A stretch of DNA of 63,116 nucleotides, counting the filler, from Sphaeroforma arctica JP610 (Eukaryota), in NCBI RefSeq assembly GCF_001186125.1. It is 6 parts of 3 records of this genome, joined end to end, with 100 filler letters (N's around TTAATTAATTAA, not from the genome) between each part and the next. Parts side by side here need not be neighbours in the genome. Positions count along the whole stretch, not along the records: positions 29,146 to 56,854 come from NW_014040537.1; 5 more parts are not named here. One strand, given 5' to 3'. Below the pieces are notes generated by a model. That model was not told the DNA's origin. It ran no database searches and worked only from the letters and a program-made list of their open reading frames with translations. Positions 11,381 through 52,200 of the stretch are shown here, piece after piece. Position numbers and translations under genes: made by a program. The number at the start of each line of letters is the position of its first letter. The stretch's first letter is position 1.

Positions 11381-14300
11381 TTACAAGACGAGTGTACATT
11401 TAGCCATACTAACACATGTGTTTCCTCTGTTTGAGTTCAATAGTGGCCCAATGGTGTTCACTTGGCCTTTGTCGCCTGGGAATGCGACTGTGATTGGTTG
11501 TAAGGGATGGAATCCCTTTTTGTATATCTTATTTTTGAGAGATGGTACGCATACTTCGATGAACTTATGTACATGTTGTTCGATTTGTGGCCAATCATGT
11601 CCATCCGTCTGCAACATGTTTACCGTTTCCTCAGAAGTGTAATCTCCCAAGTTTTGCTACTGCTCGATAATGTTGACACGTGGCGCGTATTCTGTTGCCT
11701 GTGGCGCATCTTCAGATGGAACTGGATGTAATGCTGCAACATGTATGGCAGGTTGTTCCCGCGTTGAGTCAAAGTATGGAGATTTCATTCCTATCTTTGC
11801 TACCAATGCGACGACCCATGGGGTCTTGTCACATGCTTTTGTGCCTTCTTTGAGGAACGTTTTGTTCGTGTTTCCCACTAGCATCGGGTCTTCTTCTGGT
11901 ACAGATGCGAGTTTTGGAAACCAAGTTGCATAGAGGTAGTAGGGTACACATATCGTGATACTTGTTGCCTCTTCAATGACTTTGTCAACGACGTCAGGTA
12001 TGAGTTTCCATGGTGGGTTCGCCCATGCATTCACTTCCTGCTCCCACCTTTGTAGTAGCGCATTTTGTTCTTTGATGTAGTATTTATCTGTGTGTGCATT
12101 GTGAGCCGATGCGATCAGAACTACTGTGAATTCCCCAAACCGACGTTTAGTTTCTTGGTAGAATCTGGGGTGTAACATCCAGTCTATGGCTATTATGGTT
12201 ATGGGCATGTTAGTTTCCAAGGTTGTGTACTTTTGGCTGTTACGTGTTGTTTCCTTCGCTTCCTTTAATACCTTTTGGTTTTAGTGTTAGAAGTGTCTTC
12301 GTGTAGACGCGACAATATATCTACCATCTGGTTGCCCTTGCCTGGGATGTGTATGACGGAGAAGTGGTGGTGGAATGTTTTTGCTATCCATTTGGCTAGC
12401 ATTGGGTGTAACATCTGTTGACTGTTCATTGGCGTGAGTGCTTTATGATCTGTCCATAGTGTTATGTCCCATCCTTTAATGTATTCGGTTTAATGCTCCA
12501 GGCTATTTACCAGTGCTAGTAGCTCCTTGGTATTCGTGCCATAGCGTTGTTGTGCTGGATTCATGTCTTTCGAGAAGTAGAGAACATCCTCCTATGCCAT
12601 TGTCACTGGCATCGTTTATGATTTGAAACGGTACCCCATCAACAGGGTAGACTAGTGTCGCCTAATATGCGATGGATTCTTTGAGTTCTTCCCACTTCTT
12701 TTTGATAGTCCATGACACGAATATGTTCAGGTTCATTTTTTCTTTCAATAGGTTCCGGAATTGTTTTGTAGTGTCGGCAAAGTTGGGGACATGGTCGCCT
12801 ATATAGTTTGCTAGTCCCACCGCTGTGTGCAGATCTCTTTTTGATCCGGGTAGTGGCCAGTCTTTTTTTCAGGATCTTCTTTGAGTCCCTGTGTGGTTAC
12901 TTTCACATCTAGAATGTTGACCACCATGAACGCGAAGGCACACTTATTGTGATTGAGTCGGAACTTTGCTCCATTCAGTCGCTTGATTACTTCACGAACT
13001 GTCTTGTGGTGTTCTTCTATAAGAATCGCAATGAATATGTCATCTACATACAGCTGCACACCTTTGATGTCTATGAGCAGGTTTGCTATGACTGTCTGGA
13101 ACTGTGCTGTGAGTGAGTGTAGCCCAAACGGCGCTGACTTGAATGAGTACTCCGCTCCTCTCCACAAGAATGTGAAGTGTTGGCTTGCTTAGTCTACTAT
13201 GAAGTGGTGAAACCCTCCTATGAGATCTAACTTTGAAAATAATTGCGCTTCTTAAAGGTGGTGTAGTACTTCCTTTATTTTAGGTGACACAAACTTATCT
13301 TGTTCGTATTGGTATTTGATCTCGCGTAAGTCTAGACATGTTCTTACTTTCTTGAGAAGACCTGGATGGTCATGTTCACCTGATGATAACAACGGTAGAT
13401 TTACTGTTGTTGGAGTAGTTTGTATGTAGATGTGCCCATCTGTAAGCCACTTCCATAGAGCCTGGTAGGTTGCAATGTATGTCAGGAGGTATGTTCGCAT
13501 TGGTATCTAAAAGGTCTGTAAGTGACTCTCTGTAATATTCTTGTTCATGCTCCGGGTCTTCTTCATGTGGCGTGAGGAGTGATTCCCTTTTTTGCATCTG
13601 TTGGTATAAGTGGATTGATTAATCCTGCTATGTTTATACCTATGTATGATAGAAAGTCCATACCAAGAAGAATTGGTGTCTTCTTGTCTGGTAGATCCAA
13701 CACTTCAAAGCACTGAGAGATTTTCCTACCTCCATAATTAATGTCACAAACTTGAGTTGACCCTGTGCGTTGTATTTTTGCATCTGTTTCTGCTAATTAT
13801 ATATAGACCGGTTGCGCTCTGATGGAGAGATGTAGTTCTGATACTACACTCTTGTCCATGCATGAGCGTCGTACGCCCGAGTCTACTAGTGCGTTGTATG
13901 TATTGCCATTAATTTGTATGTCAATGTGTAAACGTTGGTCTCGTGGGACGGGAAGTAAGGATAAAGGTTAGTAATCTATATCATTTCCATTTATTAACAA
14001 CGTTTCTTCATCTGTATATACATTGAGCCTGTCAACCAGGTCAATCATGTTTCCTTCCGCCCACCAGTTGTTTCAGTGCTCATCACCTGCTGTGATGTCT
14101 TCTACCTTGCCGGAGGTAATGTACAGTCTTGCTATTTGCACGTCCCTTTTGACCTGTTCCTCAGCCTGCTTGGCCTGATTCGAAGCCTTCATGGGACATT
14201 TACTTAATCGGTGTGGGGCTGGCATCACTTTACAATAAGGACATGCACGCTCCTCACGCGTCACTTTCTTCTTTTGGGCCTGTCCTATTGGCTTGGTTTG

Positions 14301-37900: not shown

Positions 37901-38644
37901 GCCCTTGATGATCGTCGTCATGCGCAGGCGTTTGCCCGGCGCCACCTCCACCAGTCCATGGTCGTGCTCATGCGCGTCCGATACCTTAGCCTGCATGATG
38001 GTCACGTGTCTTGGGTCGTGTTGCATGCGTAGATTATTGGCCCACTGTTGCTGGTTGTACGTGCTGCTGATGTAGCCCGTGATATCGTTATCCGCTAGCG
38101 GCATGCCATCCATGACCGCCAGGTAGATAAACTCAACGTCCAGGTCGTGGCACTGCTGCTCCTGATCGTACAGACTCTCCAGTGTGCGCTGCAGTTGGGT
38201 GCGCGTGTTGATCCTGTTCCCCTCCGTAAATCCCGCAAACGATACCACTACCCCCACGACCAGTTTGCGCTGCTTAGATCTGGGTGTGAAGTACGAGCCA
38301 CCCTGTACCGGCGCAAGCCCCGACCACTGTGAAATCACCGACTGCGTCTTCACTGCAGGCGCCGAACTCAGCACCAGATCATCTCTGACCTTCAGCATTG
38401 AAACCTCTGTATGCCTCATATCGTCCTCTGAGCCTCCCACCAGGCCTAAGACACTGCCGATTTTAGCTCCGTAACTTGCTATTACATAACCACTCCTCCT
38501 TGTGGCTGCTTTGAATCGACCCCAGCGAGACGGATCCACCTCCACCTCGATCTCGTCTGTAAGATACACAGTGTCATCGTCTGTGTGATCCTTCCATACT
38601 AAATCTGGATGCAGTTTCTTATCCTTGGGTTTATTGAGGGTGAT
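34971..38644 (-). CDS. Chitin synthase-like paralog 1 (degenerate motifs) fused to an LHFPL/claudin-like domain; exons 38644-36329 and 36107-34971, 5' exon not located (possibly in the gap)
   Basis: GT2 core with KVNSHEWFF, LAADNVLS and QRKRW; multiple TM helices; phase-0 intron gtaagt..ttttaccag; C-terminal LFPASW..LCG....YNPGDCSVGWSY. Confidence 0.88.
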
Positions 38645-38820
38645 CTGTAAGATTGAGTTTTAAAATGAATCGGTAGGTGAGTGAATCTTCAGAGTCAGCT
38701 ATCCATAAAAAGGTTATACAGCGGGGTACGGTTGACATACGGAAATTCGCATACGTACATCTACCTCATGGAGTAGGCGTGAGATATACTTATATTATTT
38801 TTATTATTATTACTATTATA

Positions 38821-38852
<32 letters not shown>

Positions 38853-40099
38853 CATATGTATATATGTGTATGTATATNNNNNNNNNNNNNNNNNNNNNNN
38901 NNNNNNNNNNNNNNNNNNNNNNNNNNNNNNNNNNNNNNNNNNNNNNNNNNNNNNNNNNNNNNNNNNNNNNNNNNNNNNNNNNNNNNNNNNNNNNNNNNNN
39001 NNNNNNNNNNNNNNNNNNNNNNNNNNNNNNNNNNNNNNNNNNNNNNNNNNNNNNNNNNNNNNNNNNNNNNNNNNNNNNNNNNNNNNNNNNNNNNNNNNNN
39101 NNNNNNNNNNNNNNNNNNNNNNNNNNNNNNNNNNNNNNNNNNNNNNNNNNNNNNNNNNNNNNNNNNNNNNNNNNNNNNNNNNNNNNNNNNNNNNNNNNNN
39201 NNNNNNNNNNNNNNNNNNNNNNNNNNNNNNNNNNNNNNNNNNNNNNNNNNNNNNNNNNNNNNNNNNNNNNNNNNNNNNNNNNNNNNNNNNNNNNNNNNNN
39301 NNNNNNNNNNNNNNNNNNNNNNNNNNNNNNNNNNNNNNNNNNNNNNNNNNNNNNNNNNNNNNNNNNNNNNNNNNNNNNNNNNNNNNNNNNNNNNNNNNNN
39401 NNNNNNNNNNNNNNNNNNNNNNNNNNNNNNNNNNNNNNNNNNNNNNNNNNNNNNNNNNNNNNNNNNNNNNNNNNNNNNNNNNNNNNNNNNNNNNNNNNNN
39501 NNNNNNNNNNNNNNNNNNNNNNNNNNNNNNNNNNNNNNNNNNNNNNNNNNNNNNNNNNNNNNNNNNNNNNNNNNNNNNNNNNNNNNNNNNNNNNNNNNNN
39601 NNNNNNNNNNNNNNNNNNNNNNNNNNNNNNNNNNNNNNNNNNNNNNNNNNNNNNNNNNNNNNNNNNNNNNNNNNNNNNNNNNNNNNNNNNNNNNNNNNNN
39701 NNNNNNNNNTATAAATAGTATATTAATTATACATATATATAGATATATATATATATATATAAATGTATATATGTATATATGTATATATATATATATTGGC
39801 ATATATCTTTACCTATATATCTATATAAATTTATATATATATAGTTTATACACACATAAATATATATACATTGTATACATATCTTATACGTATATATGTA
39901 TATATATATATTATGTATACATACTATAGATGTACATGTATATATGTGTATATATGTGTGTATATATATATATATATTAAATATGCGTATAAATATGGGT
40001 GTGTGTTTGTGCGTGCGAGTGTGTGTGCGCGTATGTATATATCTATATTTGTGTTTGCGTGCGTGCGTATGTCTCGTATCCAATCTGTCACGGAAAATC

Positions 40100-43000
40100 C
40101 AGCAACTCGTTTGCCTAAGTACATCCTCGGCCAAGATACTTACCTGTGCCGAGTTGTAACTGAGGACGGCGGTGAAGAATGAAACCACGATGAGCCAGTA
40201 TGACCAGTCCAACGAGCAGTCACCTGGATTGTAGTAATGTGCCGACTCACCACAGAGATAACCGCTGCTGGCGCTAACCTCTACATCCCACCACCCCACC
40301 CGGTTTGTTTTTAGGTCGAAGAAACTCATAGGGAATAGAAGGATAGCCGCCATCAGCGCGCAGATTGTGAGCCACACGTACAGCACACTGACGCCGTACA
40401 CACGCGACCTGTCCTTCGTGCACAGTGCATAGAGGCATGCGAGCATGATCAAGCCCAGGAAGATCACACACCCGAATATCAGTAATAGGGTGTAGGCCCA
40501 AAGCTGGTTCGGGAAATGCCACATCAGATCCGACCCCCACAACATCGTTTCGGATTTGTAGGGTACAACAGTGTGGAAGTCAAATTCGAAAAACAGGAGT
40601 CCATAGTACATATCCACGGAGCCACCCTCCACCGAGGTGGTGATGTCGGCTTTCATTTGTACGAAGGTCTGGTTTAGGAAGCTTTTCTTCTGGTATCTAG
40701 CCTTGTATGTGGTGTCCGGTGGGGTCGATATACCTACATACACTCTATCTGTAAGGTAATGATGGATTAACTAATATGAGGTCCTGTAGATTGCACACAT
40801 ACAATATGCATACAACTGTCACAATATACGTTCATATCCGTGATCTGAGCAACGGATATTGCACAGTCAATGCCAACCGGAGGAAAGTTATCGCGACAAC
40901 ATATTTATACATGGTCTACAACATACCGTAATCATCAGTGTATGTGAGATTCAAGTACGACAGGAAGTCGTGCATGACGTTCGTCAACTTATTTCCAATC
41001 GACCCATCCTCATTGACCGTGTAGTTAGTCGTAATAGTAGTGACAACACTGTTGTTGACATAGTAGGCATTGATACGATGGTTTGGCAAGAAGATCTTGC
41101 CCTCGAGCTCGCGTAAAGCATCCAATCGGTATAGTGTTGTCACTGTTACGACCTCGGTTCGAACATAGTTGTATATATCCATTACGTTGGCATCTTCAAT
41201 CGTCTCGTTGCTGCTCTTCAGAACGAAACTGTGTATATCCGTCGCGTTCGCATCTTCCAATGTCTCGCTGCTACTCTTGATAACACTGTCTTGTAATGTA
41301 TAGAACTGTGTACAAGTAGAAGTAGATAGCCTAAAGATTAGTTCTAATGCATACGATAGTGCCGAGTATAAATGCTGACAAAACTCTCTTATTTTAGGAA
41401 AGCACTAATCAAACACACCCAACCAAGCTCAATTATGCAACGCCTGCCCTAGTTCTATGCAATTCCCAATGCTACTAAATCAGTAAATTTAGTCTGGCGG
41501 TCGGTTATTTTGCTTCTGGGGCGTATGCGCGAGAAAGTTATTATCACAACAAGCAATGTGTTCTTCTATAGGGCTGGTCACTTACGGTTTCGTTATAGTC
41601 TGACCTGAAGATGTCTTCCCACTTCATGAAGGTTTCATTCAGAGTAACGGTGATGTTGAACCGCTGCTCCACTGGAAACGAATTCGTCAGCCACGACGTT
41701 GTGAATAGGCCTGTGAAAACACAGGCCACTGTGGTGGCGAAGAGCGTTGCACTCAGAATCTGCATCGATCGCCTAGTAAGATTCCTGACACCAGCCGACA
41801 ATATGTGCTCGGTGTAGAACAAATAGAAGCCGAAGGATAGGATCTGTTGGAAGAGAGCAATGCCCACAAAAACCATGGACATCACCATTAGACCCTGCAA
41901 GCTGTTGTAGCGCACAAAGAGTCCGCACACTGTAAAGTTCAGGCACATGACTAGGAGTAGCACTACCAACCCTATCCTTCTGTGCAGTATCCCTGTCTTA
42001 ACCGATTTCTTGCCCTTCGCTGATCCGCTTGATGGTCGATTTCCCCATGACAAATCCCACACACGGCAATAGGCATACGCAGAAAACCACGGTATGAATA
42101 TCGGCCAGAAGGCACAGAATTGAAAGAATGAGAACACCATCATAATAAACACGTCCAGGCTATGGAGCAGAGCCAAGAAGAAGGGCATGAATACGGCTAG
42201 AAGTAGAACCAGAATGGCTATGGGATCGGCGTTGGCAAATGCTGCGGTCAAACCGGCAACCACCAGCATATACGATATGCTATTCCAAACCACCACCGCA
42301 TTATACAAGCTTCTCGAGAATTTCGAGAAAAAATGCGTGAGACAGAATACTATATACAGGAGCGCCCCACAGCTGGTAATTCCCCAGGCGACGAGTTGAT
42401 TGTACCCGTCACCGCCAATATTCAAGGACTTGACGGCAAAGTATATTAGAGCCGCGAAGACACCAGGTGAGACAGTTCTGACAGCGTACAAAATAGTTTG
42501 TAACAGAAGCTGACTATAGATGACGATTTTGAACCACCAAGAGTGTGAGCCTCGGAAAATAACTCCGGGCGAGAAGAACAACAGATACAGGTACGATGCA
42601 GACGTTCCATTGATCCACCGTCGACGTTGTGTGAGAAAGCTTTTGCTGTCAGTCTCTGCTTCGGTGTAGAAAACTGCTTTGGGTACCCATCTTGTATATT
42701 TCCCAGTCATAAGACAAGCAGCGTAACTAAGGATACGATCCTCAGCGAGTAGTAGATTGCCCATAATTAAGCCATCTTCTGGTTTGATGCTGTTGACGTA
42801 GTCGATGTAGTAATCCATCGGCTTACCCCCCACAACACTCATTCGCCACAAACCGGCTGGTCCAGGTATCACAGGAAGCATACCAATCAGCGAAAATGCT
42901 CCTAAGAAACTGGAAATGGAGGCTTCATAATCGTATGCTTGCACAGCCCTGTACCACATCTGCATTAACCCCTCCGTCCTTAGAGACTGCATTGATGAAG

Positions 43001-44415
43001 ACATGACACGCTGACGCCCAGTAACAGCGCTAACGTCAGGATGCGTGTTTAAATAGTCGATGAGGTAATATAAACATCCCTGTGATAATGAAGACAAGAC
43101 AGATACAGTTAGTTAGATACAGAAAAAGGTACTTTATAATTCAGTGCCTGAAGAATAGTTACTACTGAGTCTCACAAAACGTATAACGTTAGATAAAATT
43201 AGGTGAATGCCGAGCGTAGACTGTCTAGAAGATGGCTACCACCAAGTCTGACTAAAGAGTCTCACTAAATACGATAAAGCTAGTAAGAAATAGTAATTCT
43301 GGTAAGCGTTACGGGTGTATAGTCCGAAGAGATTAATTTCTATCTAGCCAAACAAACAAAAATGCCTAAAATGTTAAGTGCCAAGCGCAAAGTTGTCCGA
43401 AGGATATTTGCTACTGGGCCGCAGAAAAAAAATCGAGTTAATTAAAAACAGCAAGGAAGTCCGGTAAGTGTCAAGCGTAGAATGCCTGTAGGAAGCTACT
43501 ACCAAGATACACAAAAACAACAGCTAAAGTACTAGTGAGATCCACAAAAAAAATAGTTAAAGTAAGGTATTTCCGGTAGGTGCAGGCACAGAATGCCTGG
43601 AGAATAGTTGCTACTACTGAGTCAACTGAAGTTGGCTAGATATAGTGGGATATTTTCGACGTGTCAAACGTAGAGTACCTGGAGCATAGCTACTACTGAG
43701 TCACTAGGAGAAGGAGGATAATTGTAAAATATACCTGTGCGTAGAGCGTCCCGCAGTCAGTCCCGAACGCATAGTCGATCTCGTATTCCGAACAGAATGC
43801 CACAAAAAACCATTCATGTGAGTTCGTTTTCCGCATATTAATTCCTTTCACTAAAGTTGTCAGTCGCATATGCTTTCCGGGAGCTATTTCAACCAGACCG
43901 TGATCTCCCAATTCATCTGTCGGCGCGGCTTGGAGTACAGATACGTACGAACGATCTTCACTCCTCAACATTGCATCGGCCCAGTGCGAATCGTTATATA
44001 TTTCATTTATGTACTGTATTGTGGATTCATCAGCCTCTGATATTCCGTCCAGTATCGCTAAATACACGAACTCAACACCTAAGTCTCTACATTCTATTTC
44101 CTGACCATGTAGTGACTCTAGAGTACGTTTCAATTCCTGCCTACCTTCATTGTAGAACGGTATCAACACACCTACAACAGTTTTGGCTTGTCTTTCCCTT
44201 GGTTTGAAGTATCCTTTACCTTTCAGTGGCGCCAATACGGGATAGGTTGTCACTAGCTTTGGTTTCCTTTTACAGGGTGGTGAATATGACCCTGTACCTT
44301 TGATGTCGTATGTATAGTTTGTGATTATGCTCGTGTCATCGGTTATATCATTATGTATGGAAGGACACGTGTTGGTGGATATTGTGTCAAAATCTCCTGT
44401 ATTTGTAAACGCCAT
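40100..44415 (-). CDS. chs: Chitin synthase paralog 2 fused to an LHFPL/claudin-like domain; exons 44415-43735, 43079-41586, 41305-40927, 40748-~40144 (3' end uncertain)
   Basis: PFYNE, ILDG, KTNSH, TDCGT, VIPG, LAEDRIL, QRRRW and SWG motifs; all introns GT..AG and frame-consistent. Confidence 0.92.
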
Positions 44416-45404
44416 TGTTGAATACTATGGTTAACTATATCCCGAGTTTTACAACCCATGTACAACTTTATTCTAAATACTTGATCTAACGTTCTGCTGG
44501 AGACAACTATATCGTCTTTAATAGTATATGGAAATTGTTATTTTTAAAGCGTCTAAGGCTCTATGAAATAATAAAATATGGCAAGCTTTGCAATTGCCAT
44601 AGCAAATACTGTACAAAGGATATGTATTCCAAAAACAACCTGAATGTGTATTTTTCTAGAAATTAATTTAGTTCATATTGCAATCTTTTGAGTGCTGAAA
44701 AAAATATTTACAAGACTTGGGAGTAAAGATTATACCTGTGGTATTTATTGTTTCATCAGTGGTTAAAACAATAAAATCCGTAAAAATGTGTTTGTTTGTT
44801 GATTGTTTTGTTTTTTTGTTTTTTTTTAAATACTGGGTCCGGTGACTCCGGTCAAGTGATTAAGGCTAAATACATACACACCTGCTCTTCATTTTTTGGA
44901 AATATAAAGAAAAAAAAGGATACAGTTTTGACTACTCCGGGAGTACTTTCGAATTTATTTAGACTTTATTTGAAACAAAACCCTTTCCAATTTTGAATTT
45001 TCTGTTTTGTATTATTGAGTTTGAGGGGGTTTTACGATGTTTCTATTTTTTTTGGCGGTATTTATGCCGGATTTCCACTGTTCCATTGGCATTTTGACCG
45101 CTTGGCCTTGCCGTGATGCCGTCGCTTGCACTTTCCTTCATCCTCACTTTTACCAAATATTTATAAATACATCATGTGTATTTGTACGGGATGTGTGCTC
45201 AGTTTTAAAAACAAATGAACAGAAGCTGTTACGAACAGTGCGAAGTCTGCGAAACAAATCTTCAATCGTATGAGAGATAGAATCAAAGTCTGCTGCGCTT
45301 TGCAGACCGAATATTGATCTATTACGGGCCTAGAGCTTCTAATCGTTACTGTATCAGCCATTCTTCAGTGTCAGCAATATCACAAATTTTATAAATACTC
45401 CAGT

Positions 45405-46831
45405 ATGAGATTCCTTGCTGGCTTTTTGGTTTGTATACTGGGAGCACATGCTGTCGAGAGTCGTGCAACATATGTAGCAGGCGTTCTATCCGTGGATGAA
45501 TTCCTGAACCTGACGATAGGAGAATACATAGCAATGACCGACACTCTATTGATAGCGGATATAAGTCCTGTCTGTTCCGCTGGACTGAATGCGATGAAAG
45601 CGACATCCAAGATTCTACCATTGGTATGTGCAGCTGTCGGCTCCGCGCCTATAGAAACTACAACAGAAAACTCTGTAGAGATAACGACGACGGAGGAGGT
45701 ATCAATAATAGGGGAGATAGTAGAAAGCGAATCGAGCACCCTCACGTCACTGAATACCATTGAAGCAAGTGCAACAGATACAACCGTGAATACAACAATC
45801 GTATACAACGGAACAGGTATTGAATCGATAATCAACCGGGCTACATTTGAGGAGCTTTTCTCACTGAGATTCAACGCTGAAGCTTGTCAAAAGGGAGTGG
45901 ATGTGCTCACTTATGACAACTTTGCCACAGCTATAAATTATTACTATCCGGAAATGGTGGTAAATAATGGGACCCGTGATCAGAAATATCGGAATGTAGC
46001 GGCATTCCTTGCTCAGATGTCTCAGGAAACATCCGGGCGTGGCGAAGGTATGTATTCATTTGACAACTCGTCACAATAATCGTGTCATCTTGCATGATCT
46101 CATATATGTGCTATTCGCTCATCGATAATTTTTTTACTAATCTACAACTTTCCAACATTGCAGGTGATCCATATTTATGGGGCCTCTGCTTTATCGAAGA
46201 GTTAATATGTGATGAGAGCTGTCCACAATATACTGACGAAGGTTCTTGGGAATACCCACCAGTACCGGGGGTGTCATACCATGGGCGAGGGCCTATTCAG
46301 ATCTCTTGGAATTACAACTACGGGCTTCTGAGTGAAGCGTTGTTCGATCACAAGGAGATTTTATTAAATAAGCCAGAAATGCTCGTAACTGATGGTGTAG
46401 TGGCATTCCGGTCTGCACTATGGTTTTGGACGACCCAGCAATGGGCGAAGCCATCGTGCTTTGATATTATGATGGAAACCGCTCCCCCGTGCCAACATGC
46501 CGGGCGAGTCCCAGGATTTGGATGGACCACCAATGTGATAAATGGTATGTGTATGCGATATTCGTTCTTTTTCTCTTCGAACAAGCCTTCTGTTCATAGT
46601 GTGTTCCCTGGACTCGACTCATACGTAGACTTCATTGCACCAATAGGTGGGCTAGAATGTGGCATAGAAACACCACAGAAGGTGGAAAACAGAGTGCAAT
46701 ACTACCTGTCAATAACAAGTGCACTGGACGTAGATCCTGGTAAATATTTGTACTGTGATGAGATGGCGAATTATAGCACCGACTTTGACTGTCCGGCACC
46801 GGAAACTACACAAGATAGCTTGGCGCAGTAA
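45405..46831 (+). CDS. Secreted GH19 chitinase with Thr/Glu-rich linker; exons 45405-46047, 46164-46544, 46647-46831
   Basis: Signal peptide; AAFLAQMSQETSG, WGLCFIEE, YHGRGPIQISWNYNYG, AFRSALWFW, KPSC, INGGLECG (after splicing). Confidence 0.93.
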
Positions 46832-48761: not shown

Positions 48762-49267
48762 AATATATTCGCAGACATGTACATCGCCAACATTTTGCAG
48801 ATGCATTTAGATCTTGTTTAAGCTGGGCCAGACTGCTATGCCCTGAGATGTGTCTGGAGAAACTACCAGTTGCACAGGCATATACATCACCCGCGTTTGG
48901 CAGATACGTTTATATATTGTTTTAAGCTGGGTCAGACTGGTATGGTTCAGAGATGTGGTAGAGATTCTGCCCCTTTCGTAGGCATGTACATCACCCGCGG
49001 TTCGCAGATACGTTTAGAAATCGTATTGATTGCTGATTTCATTTCCATACTTGCTCCCAAACATTCAATATCAAAAATCGTGCTCAAATGGCTACACTAT
49101 GCATATCATACAGCCTCTTAAACTAGAAAAACAATGATTACATAATGACTTTATTATATTTGTTGTATATATGTGTATTTAAGTATTGAATACAGCCTCT
49201 TATACTAGCAAAACAATGATTACATAATGTCTTTAATATATCTGTTGTATATATGTGTATTTAAGTA

Positions 49268-52200
49268 TTATATGTCAACTGGGTACGCGTTCAGTTCCGC
49301 GAAATTACTATATTGTGTCGAAATGAAGTTTGTTCGTTCTGAGAGCGGACTGTGATTAATTTCTGTGTTGGAGTACGAGGCAAGCGATCGTGGATCATGG
49401 TTTGACCTCTCACTATTCATCATTGAAACAGTACTACTATTATTGGGATCTTCGAAGAACATGCGGCTATTTCTCAAACTACCACTCCTACTCGTAAACG
49501 GGTTTCGGAACTTCGATTCCCACGTACTCTTTTCCTCCTTAGCACCCGAGTGGTACCCAGTCTCCGTGTCCGTGTTCGCGTAGTTGAGTGATGTGAAGGA
49601 TATATGTGTGCAGTCGGCGAGCTTATCTTTCACATCTCTATTCGCCCCCTCCTTCTCAACGTCGACGTCGTTGTAGGTAAATGCGCTGCTGTCAAACTCG
49701 TAGGTCGGTGGGATAAACACCTTTTTCACATCCTCGGGTTTCTCTAAAGTAATTTGTGCCGAGTGGTAGCTAAATACAGCCGTGATGAACGATACCACCA
49801 CCAACCAATAGGACCATCCCATATTGCAATCGCCAGAGTTATAAAAGCCAGCACTCTCACCGCAGAGATACTGTTGCTCCTTGTTGTCGGGATTCCACCA
49901 CCCCACGTGGTACGTGTCTAGGTCCGCGAAACTCAAGGGGAACAGCAGGATCGCCGTAAAGAGCCCGATGATCGTGAACCACACATAAACCACGGCGACA
50001 CCATACACTCGAGACTTATCTTTGACCGTGAGCGCATAACAAGTGGCGAGAACCACGAGGGATAGGAAAATCACACAACCCACCATCAAGATTACGGTAT
50101 ATGACCATATAGTGTTTGGGTAATGCCACATCAAGTCCTGACCCCAAGAGATAGTCTCACTCTTGAACGGAGTTATTGTATGGAAATCGTATGATATGAA
50201 GAAGATACCATACGCAAGGTTCACGTAACCGTCGTACTCCTCAGAAACAACCTCGATGTCTTTGCGTACCACGGTCTGGTTGAAGTCCTCGATTGTGATG
50301 TATCCATTTCTATAGTCCCTGTCTGACACCGCCATCACATCCCCATAATGATTGTCTGTTTATAGGAACAGAAAAACATCAATATATTAGTGACAATACA
50401 GTGATTGTGGTAGTTACAGGACTTTGTTTGCGAGCAGGCGAAGCGTAATCTCGCGATACCAGAGCACCGTATATATCTATCATGAAAAAATACTGTGATA
50501 GCTTAAAATATCATCAGCAATCACTTACCAAATCCGTCGTAGTATGAGACATTCAGATACTCGACGTATGTCGTCATCCTGGTAGCTGACTGATTCGCAA
50601 TCGTCCCATTAACCCCGAGCGTGATGTTCACCAGATAGTTTGTGATGACTGTGTTATTCACGTAATAAGCACTGAACTTGTACTGATTCAAATCAATCCT
50701 CAATGCCAAATCTTTCAGCGGATCCATATTGTAAATTTTTGTAACGGTCTGAACCGTTTCTACAGCATACCCGGTGGTATTAACTATCACCAACTCCGCG
50801 TGATTGGCATCAGCTAAAACTTTATCTCCCTCTTGTTCTCGGAAATCCTGATTAGTTGAGATGGTATGCAAGTGGGATGCACTATTAATTCTACGCTTGC
50901 AACTGCAAAAACCAACAAAACAATGCAAGGCGACATTAAGTGCAAACAAGCCCGAGAAAACGAGAAAAAAAATTACAATTTACAGCATAGCAAACTCACC
51001 TCTTTACTCAACTGCGTCAGATACGGTCCGGTGAATGCAGTCACAGTCTGGTTCATTACGATGGTACTATTTGATCGGTTGTATACTTCCACGGAGTTGG
51101 TAAGCCAACTAGACGTGAATGTTCCGGTGAACATGCACACGACCGTAATCACGAAAAGGGTCCCGCTGAGAAATTTCATCCACTTCCTGTTGACGTTCTG
51201 AACACCAGCCGTCAACATGTGCTCAGTATAGAACAGATAGAAGATGAAAGAGAGGATCTGCTGCATGAGAGAAATGCCCACCATGACCATCGACATCATC
51301 ATTAGTGCCTGAGAGTTGTTGTAAGCCATAAAAAGACCGCACACTGTAAAATTCAGGCTCATAACTATGAGTAGTACTGCCAATCCAATCCTTTTGTGAA
51401 GTATCTCGGTTTTGTTTGCTTCCTTGCCTTCCGCAGAACCGCTTGAAGGTCGATTTCCCCAAGAAAGATCCCACACGCGGCAATAAGAATAAGCCGAGAA
51501 CCATGGTATAAATGTTGGCAGGAAAATGAAGAACTGAAAGAATGAAAACAGCATCATGATGAATACATCCAGACTGTGTAGCAGAGCCAAGAAGAAGGGC
51601 ATGAATACGGCCAGAAGAAGAATCAGGATGGCTATGGGATCCGCGTTGGCGAACGTCACGGCCACACTGGCAACGATTACCATAAATGACAGAGTGTTCC
51701 AAGTCACCACTGCATTATACAAGCTCCTCGAAAACTTCGTGAGAAAATGCGTCGCACAGAATATCAAATACATGAAGGCACTGAAACCGTTGATTGCCCA
51801 GGCCACGTACTGATTGTACTCGCTACCGCCGATGTTCAAAGATTTGACGGCGAAGTATATTAGAGTCGCAAAGATAGCAGGCGAAACAGCTGTGACCGTG
51901 TACAGTATCGTTTGCAGCAGAAGTTGACTGTATATGATAATCTTAAATGACCACGAGTGTGGTCCACGGAAAATCACTCCAGGTGAAAAGAACAGTAAAA
52001 ACAGGTACGATGCGAACGTTCCATTAATCCATCGTCGACGTTGTGTGAGAAACGCTTTGCTGTCAGTCTCTGCTTCGGTGTAGAAAACCGCTTTGGGTAC
52101 CCATCTTGTAAACTTCCCGGTCATAAGACAGGCAGCGTAACTAAGAATACGATCTTCGGCGAGTAGCAGGTTTCCCATAATTAAGCCATCCTCCGGTTTG

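What the first reader, a model, noticed from the sequence alone, without database searches (positions are those of the whole stretch)
49268..51200. Chitin synthase fused to an LHFPL/claudin-like tetraspan domain with a large extracellular loop
Seen: after the CHS TM region all three paralogs continue in frame, across a shared intron, into TM-FTxSWLTNS, a ~200-aa loop rich in N-x-S/T sequons, YG[LI][LF]F, two TMs, LFPxS[WF], LCGES...YNxGDCx[VLM][GD]WSYW and a last TM. Knowledge: CG...Y..G.C..xW[AS]Y before TM4 is characteristic of LHFPL/TMHS claudin-superfamily proteins, which act as auxiliary subunits of membrane complexes. I know of no CHS with this fusion. Inference: a built-in oligomerisation, trafficking or fibril-guiding module. 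Equivalent regions lie at 34971-36550 and 40140-41780.
Basis: partly seen in the sequence, partly recalled or inferred. Interest (0 to 1): 0.85.

Follow-up and report, generated by a model that had tools for sequence, protein, structure and literature searches.

The report
Chitin synthase with built-in LHFPL tetraspan
In Sphaeroforma arctica, a single-celled relative of animals, chitin synthases are transcribed as one piece with a claudin-like (LHFPL-type) membrane module that likely acts as a built-in helper for delivering and clustering the enzyme, and two neighbouring 'genes' are likely one double protein joining a synthase with intact catalytic motifs to a predicted dead one.

Summary
The fusion is real. 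Single spliced contigs span all four exons of SARC_00625, from the catalytic core to the tetraspan. The module passes Pfam L_HMGIC_fpl and its predicted fold matches LHFPL4 best (Z 16.6). It occurs in 14 of 120 listed chitin synthase homologues, which form one clade; named members are ichthyosporeans. The ~190-aa glycosylation-site-rich insert is a predicted beta-strand extension that several members lack.

Correction: the 'three paralogs' are likely two genes. SARC_00623 and SARC_00622 join in frame into a 2,203-aa tandem; the splice is seen in a close relative's contig, not yet in this species. The second synthase has changed residues that a Phytophthora synthase needs, so it is a predicted pseudo-enzyme. 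A second, more decayed fusion arose separately (P0123). A spliced antisense RNA crosses the junction.

Best reading (0.45): a built-in auxiliary subunit for maturation and clustering; untested. Ten paper searches showed no description, though databases carry the Pfam labels. New variant of a known kind; interest 0.65.

The parts
49268..53483 (-). Gene A (SARC_00625): chitin synthase + LHFPL-type tetraspan, 1197 aa, 4 exons (53483-52791, 52493-51000, 50847-50529, 50355-49268)
   Evidence: Model identical to P0002; single spliced contigs in X3 and X4
51987..53246 (-). A: GT2 catalytic domain (aa 80-400), all nine synthase motifs recognisable (PFYNE, DG, KRKTN, DCGT, QSYDY, VLPGP, EDR, QRRRW; SWG follows in the TM part)
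   Evidence: Foldseek top hit PsChs1, E 1.9e-24
51222..51986 (-). A: synthase membrane domain (aa 401-655)
   Evidence: AlphaFold2 helices at pLDDT mostly 83-97
51117..51182 (-). A: tetraspan TM1 (aa 669-690), same exon as EDR/QRRRW
50210..51104 (-). A: ~190-aa insert in the first extracellular loop, 10 sequons, no cysteine, predicted long beta strands (low confidence); spans two introns
   Evidence: no fold or Atlas match
49745..50113 (-). A: tetraspan TM2, TM3, second loop with the C-G..G-x-C pair, TM4 (aa 917-1039)
   Evidence: Pfam PF10242; LHFPL4/5 only PDB sequence hits; 16 of 18 changed codons synonymous against a relative over insert plus TM2-4
49271..49744 (-). A: predicted disordered cytoplasmic tail
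   Evidence: pLDDT about 30; 12 of 19 changed codons non-synonymous
34971..44415 (-). Gene B-C (annotated as SARC_00623 + SARC_00622): likely one 2203-aa tandem, synthase-tetraspan-pseudo-synthase-tetraspan; exons 44415-43735, 43079-41586, 41305-40927, 40748-40144, 38644-36329, 36107-34971
   Evidence: Open frame, five GT-AG introns; all five joints in relative X10
40144..44415 (-). Unit B: synthase with intact motifs + tetraspan (tetraspan 41777-40144)
38645..40143 (-). 1499-nt phase-0 intron (GTAAGT...TTACAG) joining B to C; holds an N gap 38878-39709
   Evidence: Joint 38644/40144 in a 1665-nt contig of X10; junction reads SAQ|ITLNKP, like intron-less SAQITLEKP of A
38267..38644 (-). Linker (about 126-131 aa) from B's last TM to C's first catalytic strand
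   Evidence: no Pfam match
34971..38266 (-). Unit C: predicted pseudo-synthase (EIGT, QSYDQ, LICGA, ADN, SWG lost; DG, catalytic D and QRKRW kept) + tetraspan (36520-35115)
   Evidence: Motif table read against PsChs1 mutants in PMC9556331
37928..40749 (+). Spliced antisense RNA over the B-C junction: plus-strand intron 38677-40314 (GTGAGT...TTTTTAG); true ends unknown; longest open frame 102 codons
   Evidence: One 1184-nt contig in X8; splice sites and frames
45405..46831 (+). GH19 chitinase gene between A and B-C, opposite strand; introns predicted, not tested
   Evidence: Pfam Glyco_hydro_19, 128 and 29 bits

Best explanation
These are chitin synthases that carry an LHFPL-type four-helix membrane module on the same chain, and the module likely works as a built-in auxiliary subunit that would help the enzyme fold, reach the plasma membrane and cluster with other synthases. 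Shown: the fusion, its transcript, its fold class by prediction, purifying selection, and one clade. Inferred: a single fusion of a division-1-like synthase with a free ichthyosporean LHFPL-like tetraspan; ten membrane helices (6+4) that leave both ends in the cytoplasm; the module packing on its own or a neighbouring synthase's membrane domain, as DUOXA does for DUOX and LHFPL4/5 do for their partners. The long glycosylated beta insert is an optional stalk, gained later and lost again, that would project into the wall. In the B-C gene the even helix count and a ~130-aa linker would let an active synthase (B) and a dead one (C) fill the two halves of the usual synthase dimer, with C as scaffold or damper.
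For: Transcript and selection. Fold: LHFPL4 Z 16.6, rmsd 3.1 A over 182 residues, then MP20, TARPs, claudins and DUOXA1 (Z 12.0); Foldseek prob 1.0. Most of these top matches are auxiliary subunits of other membrane proteins by entry title. DUOXA promotes maturation and membrane localisation of DUOX and its claudin-like domain contacts both DUOX subunits (PMC7794343, passages); LHFPL5 dimerises by TM1 and holds PCDH15 helices (PMC6092121, passages). Solved synthases have six TMs and are dimers (PMC12653383, passages). The four-helix core is kept in 12 of 14 carriers (P0005 and P0010 end early) while the insert is not. It is kept on two separately arisen predicted pseudo-enzymes, unit C and P0123, which points to a structural role. 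Nearest free relatives are ichthyosporean stand-alone tetraspans.
Against: No functional data. The role is borrowed from animal proteins at 11-16% structural identity. The window's three modules lack the first-loop cysteine pair of LHFPL5 and claudins. Sister synthases with an SH2 domain (P0015 Creolimax, P0017) and all other 106 listed homologues work without the module. The single-chain model (pTM 0.63) gives no inter-domain confidence. The B-C splice is seen in 1 of 4 runs, in a relative; in this species X8 shows the antisense joint instead, X4 laid nothing and X3 one short contig. C keeps the catalytic aspartate and QRKRW, which is native in PsChs1, so some activity is possible.
Confidence: 0.45

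Rival explanations
1. Fibril guide: the glycosylated beta stalk stands over the chitin exit and orders or binds nascent chains.
For: The insert is on the predicted outer face, sequon-enriched, 11-12% aromatic, predicted as long strands, and under purifying selection with the rest of the module.
Against: Absent in P0006, P0007, P0010, P0012; only 17-38% identical between carriers; no match to any fold or family; kept on predicted dead synthases.
Confidence: 0.15
2. Wall anchor or tension sensor: the stalk is held in the wall and the tetraspan passes force to the synthase, as LHFPL5 does to the hair-cell channel, so chitin is made where the wall is stretched.
For: LHFPL4/5 are the closest solved relatives; force coupling by LHFPL5 is stated in abstracts listed (PMC10337519, PMC10801851). 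S. arctica has a thick wall (PMC11286789, passages).
Against: Force coupling is known for one animal paralog with a dedicated tether; the fused domains group with ichthyosporean free tetraspans, not LHFPL5 (weak support); short-loop members have no stalk.
Confidence: 0.13
3. Junction targeting: the claudin-like module binds in trans across apposed membranes during cellularisation and places synthesis where new walls form between daughter cells.
For: Claudin-clan fold. S. arctica forms a polarised cell layer and builds calcofluor-positive walls around each cell before release (PMC6855841, passages).
Against: The claudin first-loop signature is not met in A, B or C; no PMP22_Claudin hit; walls appear after the cells lose polarity and detach in that paper.
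Confidence: 0.12
4. Passenger or cleaved product: the fusion only co-ordinates expression, and the tetraspan acts on its own after cleavage or has no bearing on the synthase.
For: The 15-residue link between synthase TM6 and tetraspan TM1 has pLDDT under 50; most synthases lack the module.
Against: The link is short and conserved (TEH/TDH motif) across at least four genera; one clade keeps the fusion.
Confidence: 0.1
5. For the tandem only: B and C are separate genes in this species, as annotated, and the joint in the relative is read-through.
For: The public models end B through a 58-nt intron and start C with a three-codon exon; the sense joint was not seen in three runs of this species; no 2,200-aa tandem among the best 120 hits in a search covering 887-2530 aa.
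Against: Perfect GTAAGT donor and in-phase acceptor; junction sequence matches A's continuous SAQITLEKP; no stop in 2203 codons; X10 contigs chain over all five joints with no coding indel listed. Other introns here are 152-655 nt.
Confidence: 0.2

Closest known systems
Division-1-like chitin synthases (Phytophthora sojae Chs1, Candida albicans Chs2, Saccharomyces cerevisiae Chs1)
   Same: GT-A domain, motif order and membrane domain; top 20 Foldseek rows are these enzymes (E 1.9e-24 to 6e-21, 16-21% identity).
   Different: They end after TM6. These add four helices and an outer insert; unit C has altered motifs; B-C is a covalent tandem.
LHFPL tetraspans (LHFPL4/GARLH4, LHFPL5/TMHS; Pfam PF10242)
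   Same: Four-helix claudin fold, second-loop C-G..G-x-C pair; only PDB sequence hits of the profile (E about 1e-7); best fold match.
   Different: Free ~200-aa proteins with a first-loop disulfide and a short hairpin. Here fused to an enzyme, disulfide lost in A/B/C, ~190-aa insert added.
DUOXA1 maturation factor of DUOX1
   Same: Claudin-like, N-glycosylated partner of a membrane enzyme that supports maturation and assembly (PMC7794343, passages); fold match Z 12.0.
   Different: Separate polypeptide, five TMs, oxidase partner; an analogy, not a relative by sequence in any search here.
Other chitin synthase fusions (myosin motor, MIT, SAM, cytochrome b5-like, DEK_C; SH2 in P0015/P0017)
   Same: Synthase fused to a module thought to aid targeting (PMC3942024, passages).
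   Different: Those listed are soluble modules; this one is a membrane bundle with an outer domain.
Yeast Chs7 and ScChs3
   Same: Chs7 is a partner needed for Chs3 folding and ER exit; ScChs3 has a glycosylated outer domain joined by four TMs (PMC12653383, passages).
   Different: Chs7 is a separate protein; the ScChs3 region is N-terminal and in division 2. No similarity to either was found or tested here.
Tandem synthase P0013 (locus L007, virus-like neighbourhood)
   Same: Two catalytic units in one chain.
   Different: Both units keep EDR and QRRRW; no tetraspan.

Membership tests
Chitin synthase (GT2), units A and B | Nine conserved motifs as numbered for PsChs1 | tested here: met
   against PMC9556331; motif 5 reads QxYDY throughout this clade
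Chitin synthase (GT2), units A and B | GT-A domain plus synthase membrane domain | tested here: met
   Predicted model of A, Foldseek; B by 88% and 76% identity
Chitin synthase (GT2), units A and B | Makes chitin from UDP-GlcNAc | not testable with these tools
   Needs an assay
Active chitin synthase, unit C | Residues whose mutation impairs PsChs1: D382, Y433, V452, P454, E495, W742 | tested here: not met
   D382>E, Y433>Q, V452>L, P454>C, E495>A, SWG lost. E495A itself costs about 95% of activity in PsChs1
Active chitin synthase, unit C | D291, catalytic D496, QR[RK]RW | tested here: met
   Kept; QRKRW is native in PsChs1
LHFPL (PF10242) | Pfam gathering score 25.2 bits | tested here: met
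   26.8-27.0 bits on whole proteins, 29.0-33.5 on last exons; only profile positions about 64-173 of 181 match
LHFPL (PF10242) | Four-helix claudin fold with outer beta sheet | tested here: met
   Predicted model, Z 16.6 to LHFPL4; Atlas model of short-loop P0012 TM 0.75 to an LHFPL cluster
LHFPL (PF10242) | Second-loop cysteine pair before TM4 | tested here: met
   C335 and C347 in 12 of 13 aligned domains; aligned to LHFPL4
LHFPL (PF10242) | First-loop disulfide (Cys68-Cys79 of LHFPL5, PMC6092121) | tested here: not met
   Absent in A, B, C; present in fused P0010, P0012, P0128 and most free relatives
LHFPL (PF10242) | Stand-alone protein of about 200 aa | tested here: not met
   Fused in one transcript
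LHFPL (PF10242) | Orthology to animal LHFPL paralogs | tested here: inconclusive
   183-column tree groups fused domains with ichthyosporean free tetraspans (0.94 with P0157 included), inner nodes weak
LHFPL (PF10242) | TM1-mediated dimer and partner binding | not tested
Claudin proper (PF00822) | W..GLW..C..C first-loop signature (motif recalled) and Pfam match | tested here: not met
   W and YG[IL]F present, cysteines absent; no PF00822 hit at E 0.1

The most novel reading that the evidence does not exclude
Ichthyosporeans build their wall with a chitin machine of their own: LHFPL-type modules link active and dead synthases into ordered membrane arrays, tandem genes fix the active:dead ratio, a glycosylated beta stalk ties the array to the wall and couples synthesis to wall tension, and an antisense RNA over the junction tunes whether the dead half is attached. 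This would place the auxiliary-subunit role of LHFPL proteins before animals.
Probability: 0.15. Interest if true: 0.88.

Novelty: new variant of a known kind. Interest (0 to 1): 0.65.

Why it matters
How chitin synthases are clustered and how chains are organised outside the membrane is open; a synthase that carries its own helper and outer stalk on one chain is a simple object for cryo-EM and deletion tests. Domain fusion is also a functional hint in the other direction: it suggests that LHFPL-type tetraspans served membrane enzymes in unicellular relatives of animals. The B-C gene would be a natural active/dead synthase pair, hidden by a split annotation, and the repeat origin of dead synthase-tetraspan proteins suggests a non-catalytic role for synthase scaffolds. 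The module is a clade marker that includes the fish parasite genus Ichthyophonus.

Tried and rejected
No whole genome is held for this window, so paralogs were counted only through protein searches. No run was on record as RNA. X4 laid nothing and X3 one 203-nt contig on B-C: no evidence either way. The insert gave no usable Atlas hit; Foldseek rows 7-50 for the domain model (coronavirus spike, Flock House virus; TM at most 0.11, rmsd about 28-31 A) were rejected as noise; the insert was not folded alone. QRKRW was first taken as a sign of decay in C and dropped, as PsChs1 has it. My first acceptor for B exon 3 was wrong and was corrected from the contig joint. Whether the intron-less metagenome carriers (P0004, P0009, P0011, P0012, P0014, P0016, P0123; one cluster member on a 272,826-nt contig) are giant-virus genes is open: four viral-contig scans found no relative and none of 27 metagenome loci held the tetraspan. 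Weak second GT2 frames in L007 and L009 are other intact glycosyltransferases, not dead synthases. A search with P0123 returned only itself. Earlier-findings look-ups were empty. Torruella et al. 2015 (recalled to treat ichthyosporean synthases) is not held; Morozov and Likhoshway 2016 (recalled) was not seen; no supplements were read, and domain figures there could show this fusion.

Full report
What the window is. The protein searches name the source of the three frames: Sphaeroforma arctica JP610, SARC_00625, SARC_00623 and SARC_00622, on one 234,128-nt contig. I call the units A (49268-53483), B (40144-44415) and C (34971-38644), all on the minus strand. A GH19 chitinase lies between A and B on the plus strand.

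Observation. The A model has four exons and 1197 aa and equals the public protein. Tetraspan TM1 shares an exon with EDR and QRRRW; the shared intron follows it. Four of the 23 listed runs were laid on A: all four show the three introns removed exactly, and X3 and X4 each hold one contig from exon 1 to past the stop. These runs are only guessed to be RNA, but exact GT-AG removal is what cDNA gives. Against relative X10, 16 of 18 changed codons in the insert and TM2-4 are synonymous, where random change gives 22%; the tail shows 7 of 19 (only 40 of 95 differences were listed). The insert has 9-10 sequons against 2.6-3.3 by shuffle, which fits an outer location.

What the module is. Pfam L_HMGIC_fpl passes its cut-off in all three units, narrowly on whole proteins. 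A profile of 13 fused domains matches only LHFPL4 and LHFPL5 among 177,635 PDB sequences. AlphaFold2 on A (40-row alignment, pLDDT 73) gives a synthase fold followed by helices 669-690, 917-943, 949-976 and 1016-1039; the synthase part matches PsChs1, CaChs2 and ScChs1. The domain alone (13 rows, pLDDT 75, pTM 0.57) matches LHFPL4 by Foldseek (prob 1.0, rmsd 3.1) and by VIA-align (Z 16.6 over 182 residues), ahead of MP20, TARPs, claudins and DUOXA1 at Z 12-15, with unrelated bundles under 10. The insert sits between the first two strands and is modelled as long strands at pLDDT about 45-80; no match was found for it. A, B and C lack the first-loop cysteines, which fused relatives P0010, P0012 and P0128 keep. 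So the module is LHFPL-like and claudin-clan, but not filed here as a standard LHFPL or a claudin.

How widespread. A search with A's main exon for proteins of 887-2530 aa gave 219 hits, 120 listed. My profile finds the module in 14 of these 120 (13 are its own seeds, P0005 is partial) and in none of the other 106 (next E 0.14). In a FastTree of 37 of the 120 catalytic regions the 14 form one clade (0.95), sister to SH2-synthases P0015 and P0017, with short-loop P0010 and P0012 branching first and short-loop P0006/P0007 nested among long-loop forms. That suggests one fusion, a later gain of the insert and at least one loss. A profile search of 1.84 billion representatives gave 82 hits. Among the top 21, those I could place are fused synthases or fragments, plus a free S. 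arctica tetraspan (P0131); free tetraspans of Creolimax and Amoebidium follow, then strong PF10242 proteins. Named carriers are Sphaeroforma (also partial SARC_14609 and SARC_10962), Pirum, Abeoforma and Ichthyophonus; the rest are unnamed metagenome proteins.

B and C are likely one gene. B's last exon ends YNSAQ at a GTAAGT donor (40143); C's frame begins after TTACAG at 38644 with ITLNKP, which restores the SAQITLEKP that A encodes without an intron. The joined model is 2203 aa with five GT-AG introns and no stop. Laid on 34800-44600, relative X10 has a 1665-nt contig across exactly 40144/38644, and its contigs chain over all five joints with no coding indel listed. In this species the sense joint was not seen: X4 laid nothing, X3 one short contig, and X8 has a contig joining 38676 to 40315 through a plus-strand GT-AG intron, an antisense RNA. 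The two paths form a bubble that an assembler may reduce to one (inference), so X8 does not show absence. The public models use a 58-nt intron and a three-codon first exon instead. I put the tandem at about 0.8.

C is a predicted pseudo-enzyme. It is the only one of 120 listed proteins with AADN at the EDR motif. Against PsChs1 mutants (PMC9556331, passages) it has D382>E, Y433>Q, V452>L, P454>C, E495>A and no SWG, while D291, D496 and QRKRW remain. It is not a decaying pseudogene: nucleotide divergence from X10 is 2-4%, like A and B (tables 8). Its linker and first catalytic part show 10 of 29 synonymous codons (40 of 203 differences listed), so constraint there looks relaxed. P0123, from a 35.8-kb metagenome contig, has lost every motif yet keeps a full tetraspan; it groups with P0009, not C, so dead forms arose at least twice.

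Mechanism. Solved synthases have six TMs and dimerise (PMC12653383, passages). Four more helices keep both ends cytoplasmic, which the tandem needs. Claudin-clan partners of membrane proteins promote maturation and assembly: DUOXA for DUOX (PMC7794343, passages), LHFPL5 for PCDH15 (PMC6092121, passages), LHFPL4 for GABA-A receptors (PMC5640807, listing and abstract start). The conserved core, optional insert and retention on dead synthases fit a built-in auxiliary subunit best (0.45). Fibril guide, tension sensor, junction targeting and passenger are the rivals. S. arctica has a thick, calcofluor-positive wall built around each newborn cell (PMC11286789, PMC6855841, PMC8963540; passages); none of these passages shows that it is chitin.

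Literature. Ten full-text searches showed no paper on this fusion; those pairing chitin synthase with LHFPL, claudin, tetraspan or Sphaeroforma were judged from listings of at most 25 rows. Two synthase surveys have no mention of Sphaeroforma or ichthyosporeans in the main text (PMC5122149, PMC3942024; term look-ups). PMC6299283 and PMC4739763 passages added nothing. Subscription papers and all supplements were not seen. The Pfam pairing is precomputed on 5 of the 120 records.

Verdict. Observation confirmed; interpretation partly supported and extended. New variant of a known kind; interest 0.65.

Noticed in passing
window 37928-40749 (+): Spliced antisense RNA with a canonical plus-strand intron 38677-40314 across the B-C junction; one contig in run X8; no long open frame.
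   Followed up: partly
window 45405-46831 (+): GH19 chitinase with a T/E/S-rich N-terminal part between the synthase genes, making a synthase-chitinase cluster.
   Followed up: partly
P0123 (metagenome contig, 35.8 kb): Fully degenerate synthase with an intact tetraspan, closest to P0009; no other relative found by word search.
   Followed up: partly
P0004/P0195, P0009, P0011, P0012, P0014, P0016: Carriers called as single long frames on metagenome contigs of 3.7-273 kb; could be intron-poor ichthyosporeans or giant viruses.
   Followed up: partly
P0015 (Creolimax CFRG0329) and P0017: Sister clade of synthases fused to an N-terminal SH2 domain instead of the tetraspan; novelty not checked.
   Followed up: no
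L007:4642-8730 (P0013): Two intact synthase units in one 1357-aa chain, next to a second GT2 gene in a virus-like polysaccharide cluster; L009 has a similar cluster with a single unit.
   Followed up: partly
P0020, P0043, P0048, P0096, P0109: Other synthase homologues with extra precomputed Pfam domains (PF00643, PF00704, PF07679, PF01565, PF01011).
   Followed up: no
window 5553-6359 (+): Frame with a likely signal peptide and two copies of a ~140-aa cysteine-containing unit (CxSNSFYLSGADDYFGI...CYKELD); no Pfam match; cut by gaps nearby.
   Followed up: no
window 11657-12280 (-): Dam-type methyltransferase match (46.7 bits), as recalled for DIRS-like retroelements.
   Followed up: no
window 29285-29851 (-): 2Fe-2S domain (Fer2, 40.4 bits), resembling the start of a xanthine dehydrogenase or aldehyde oxidase (recalled).
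   Followed up: no
window 49056-49250: Duplicated ~110-nt stretch just past A's stop; relative X10 has the shorter form (joint 49143/49250).
   Followed up: no
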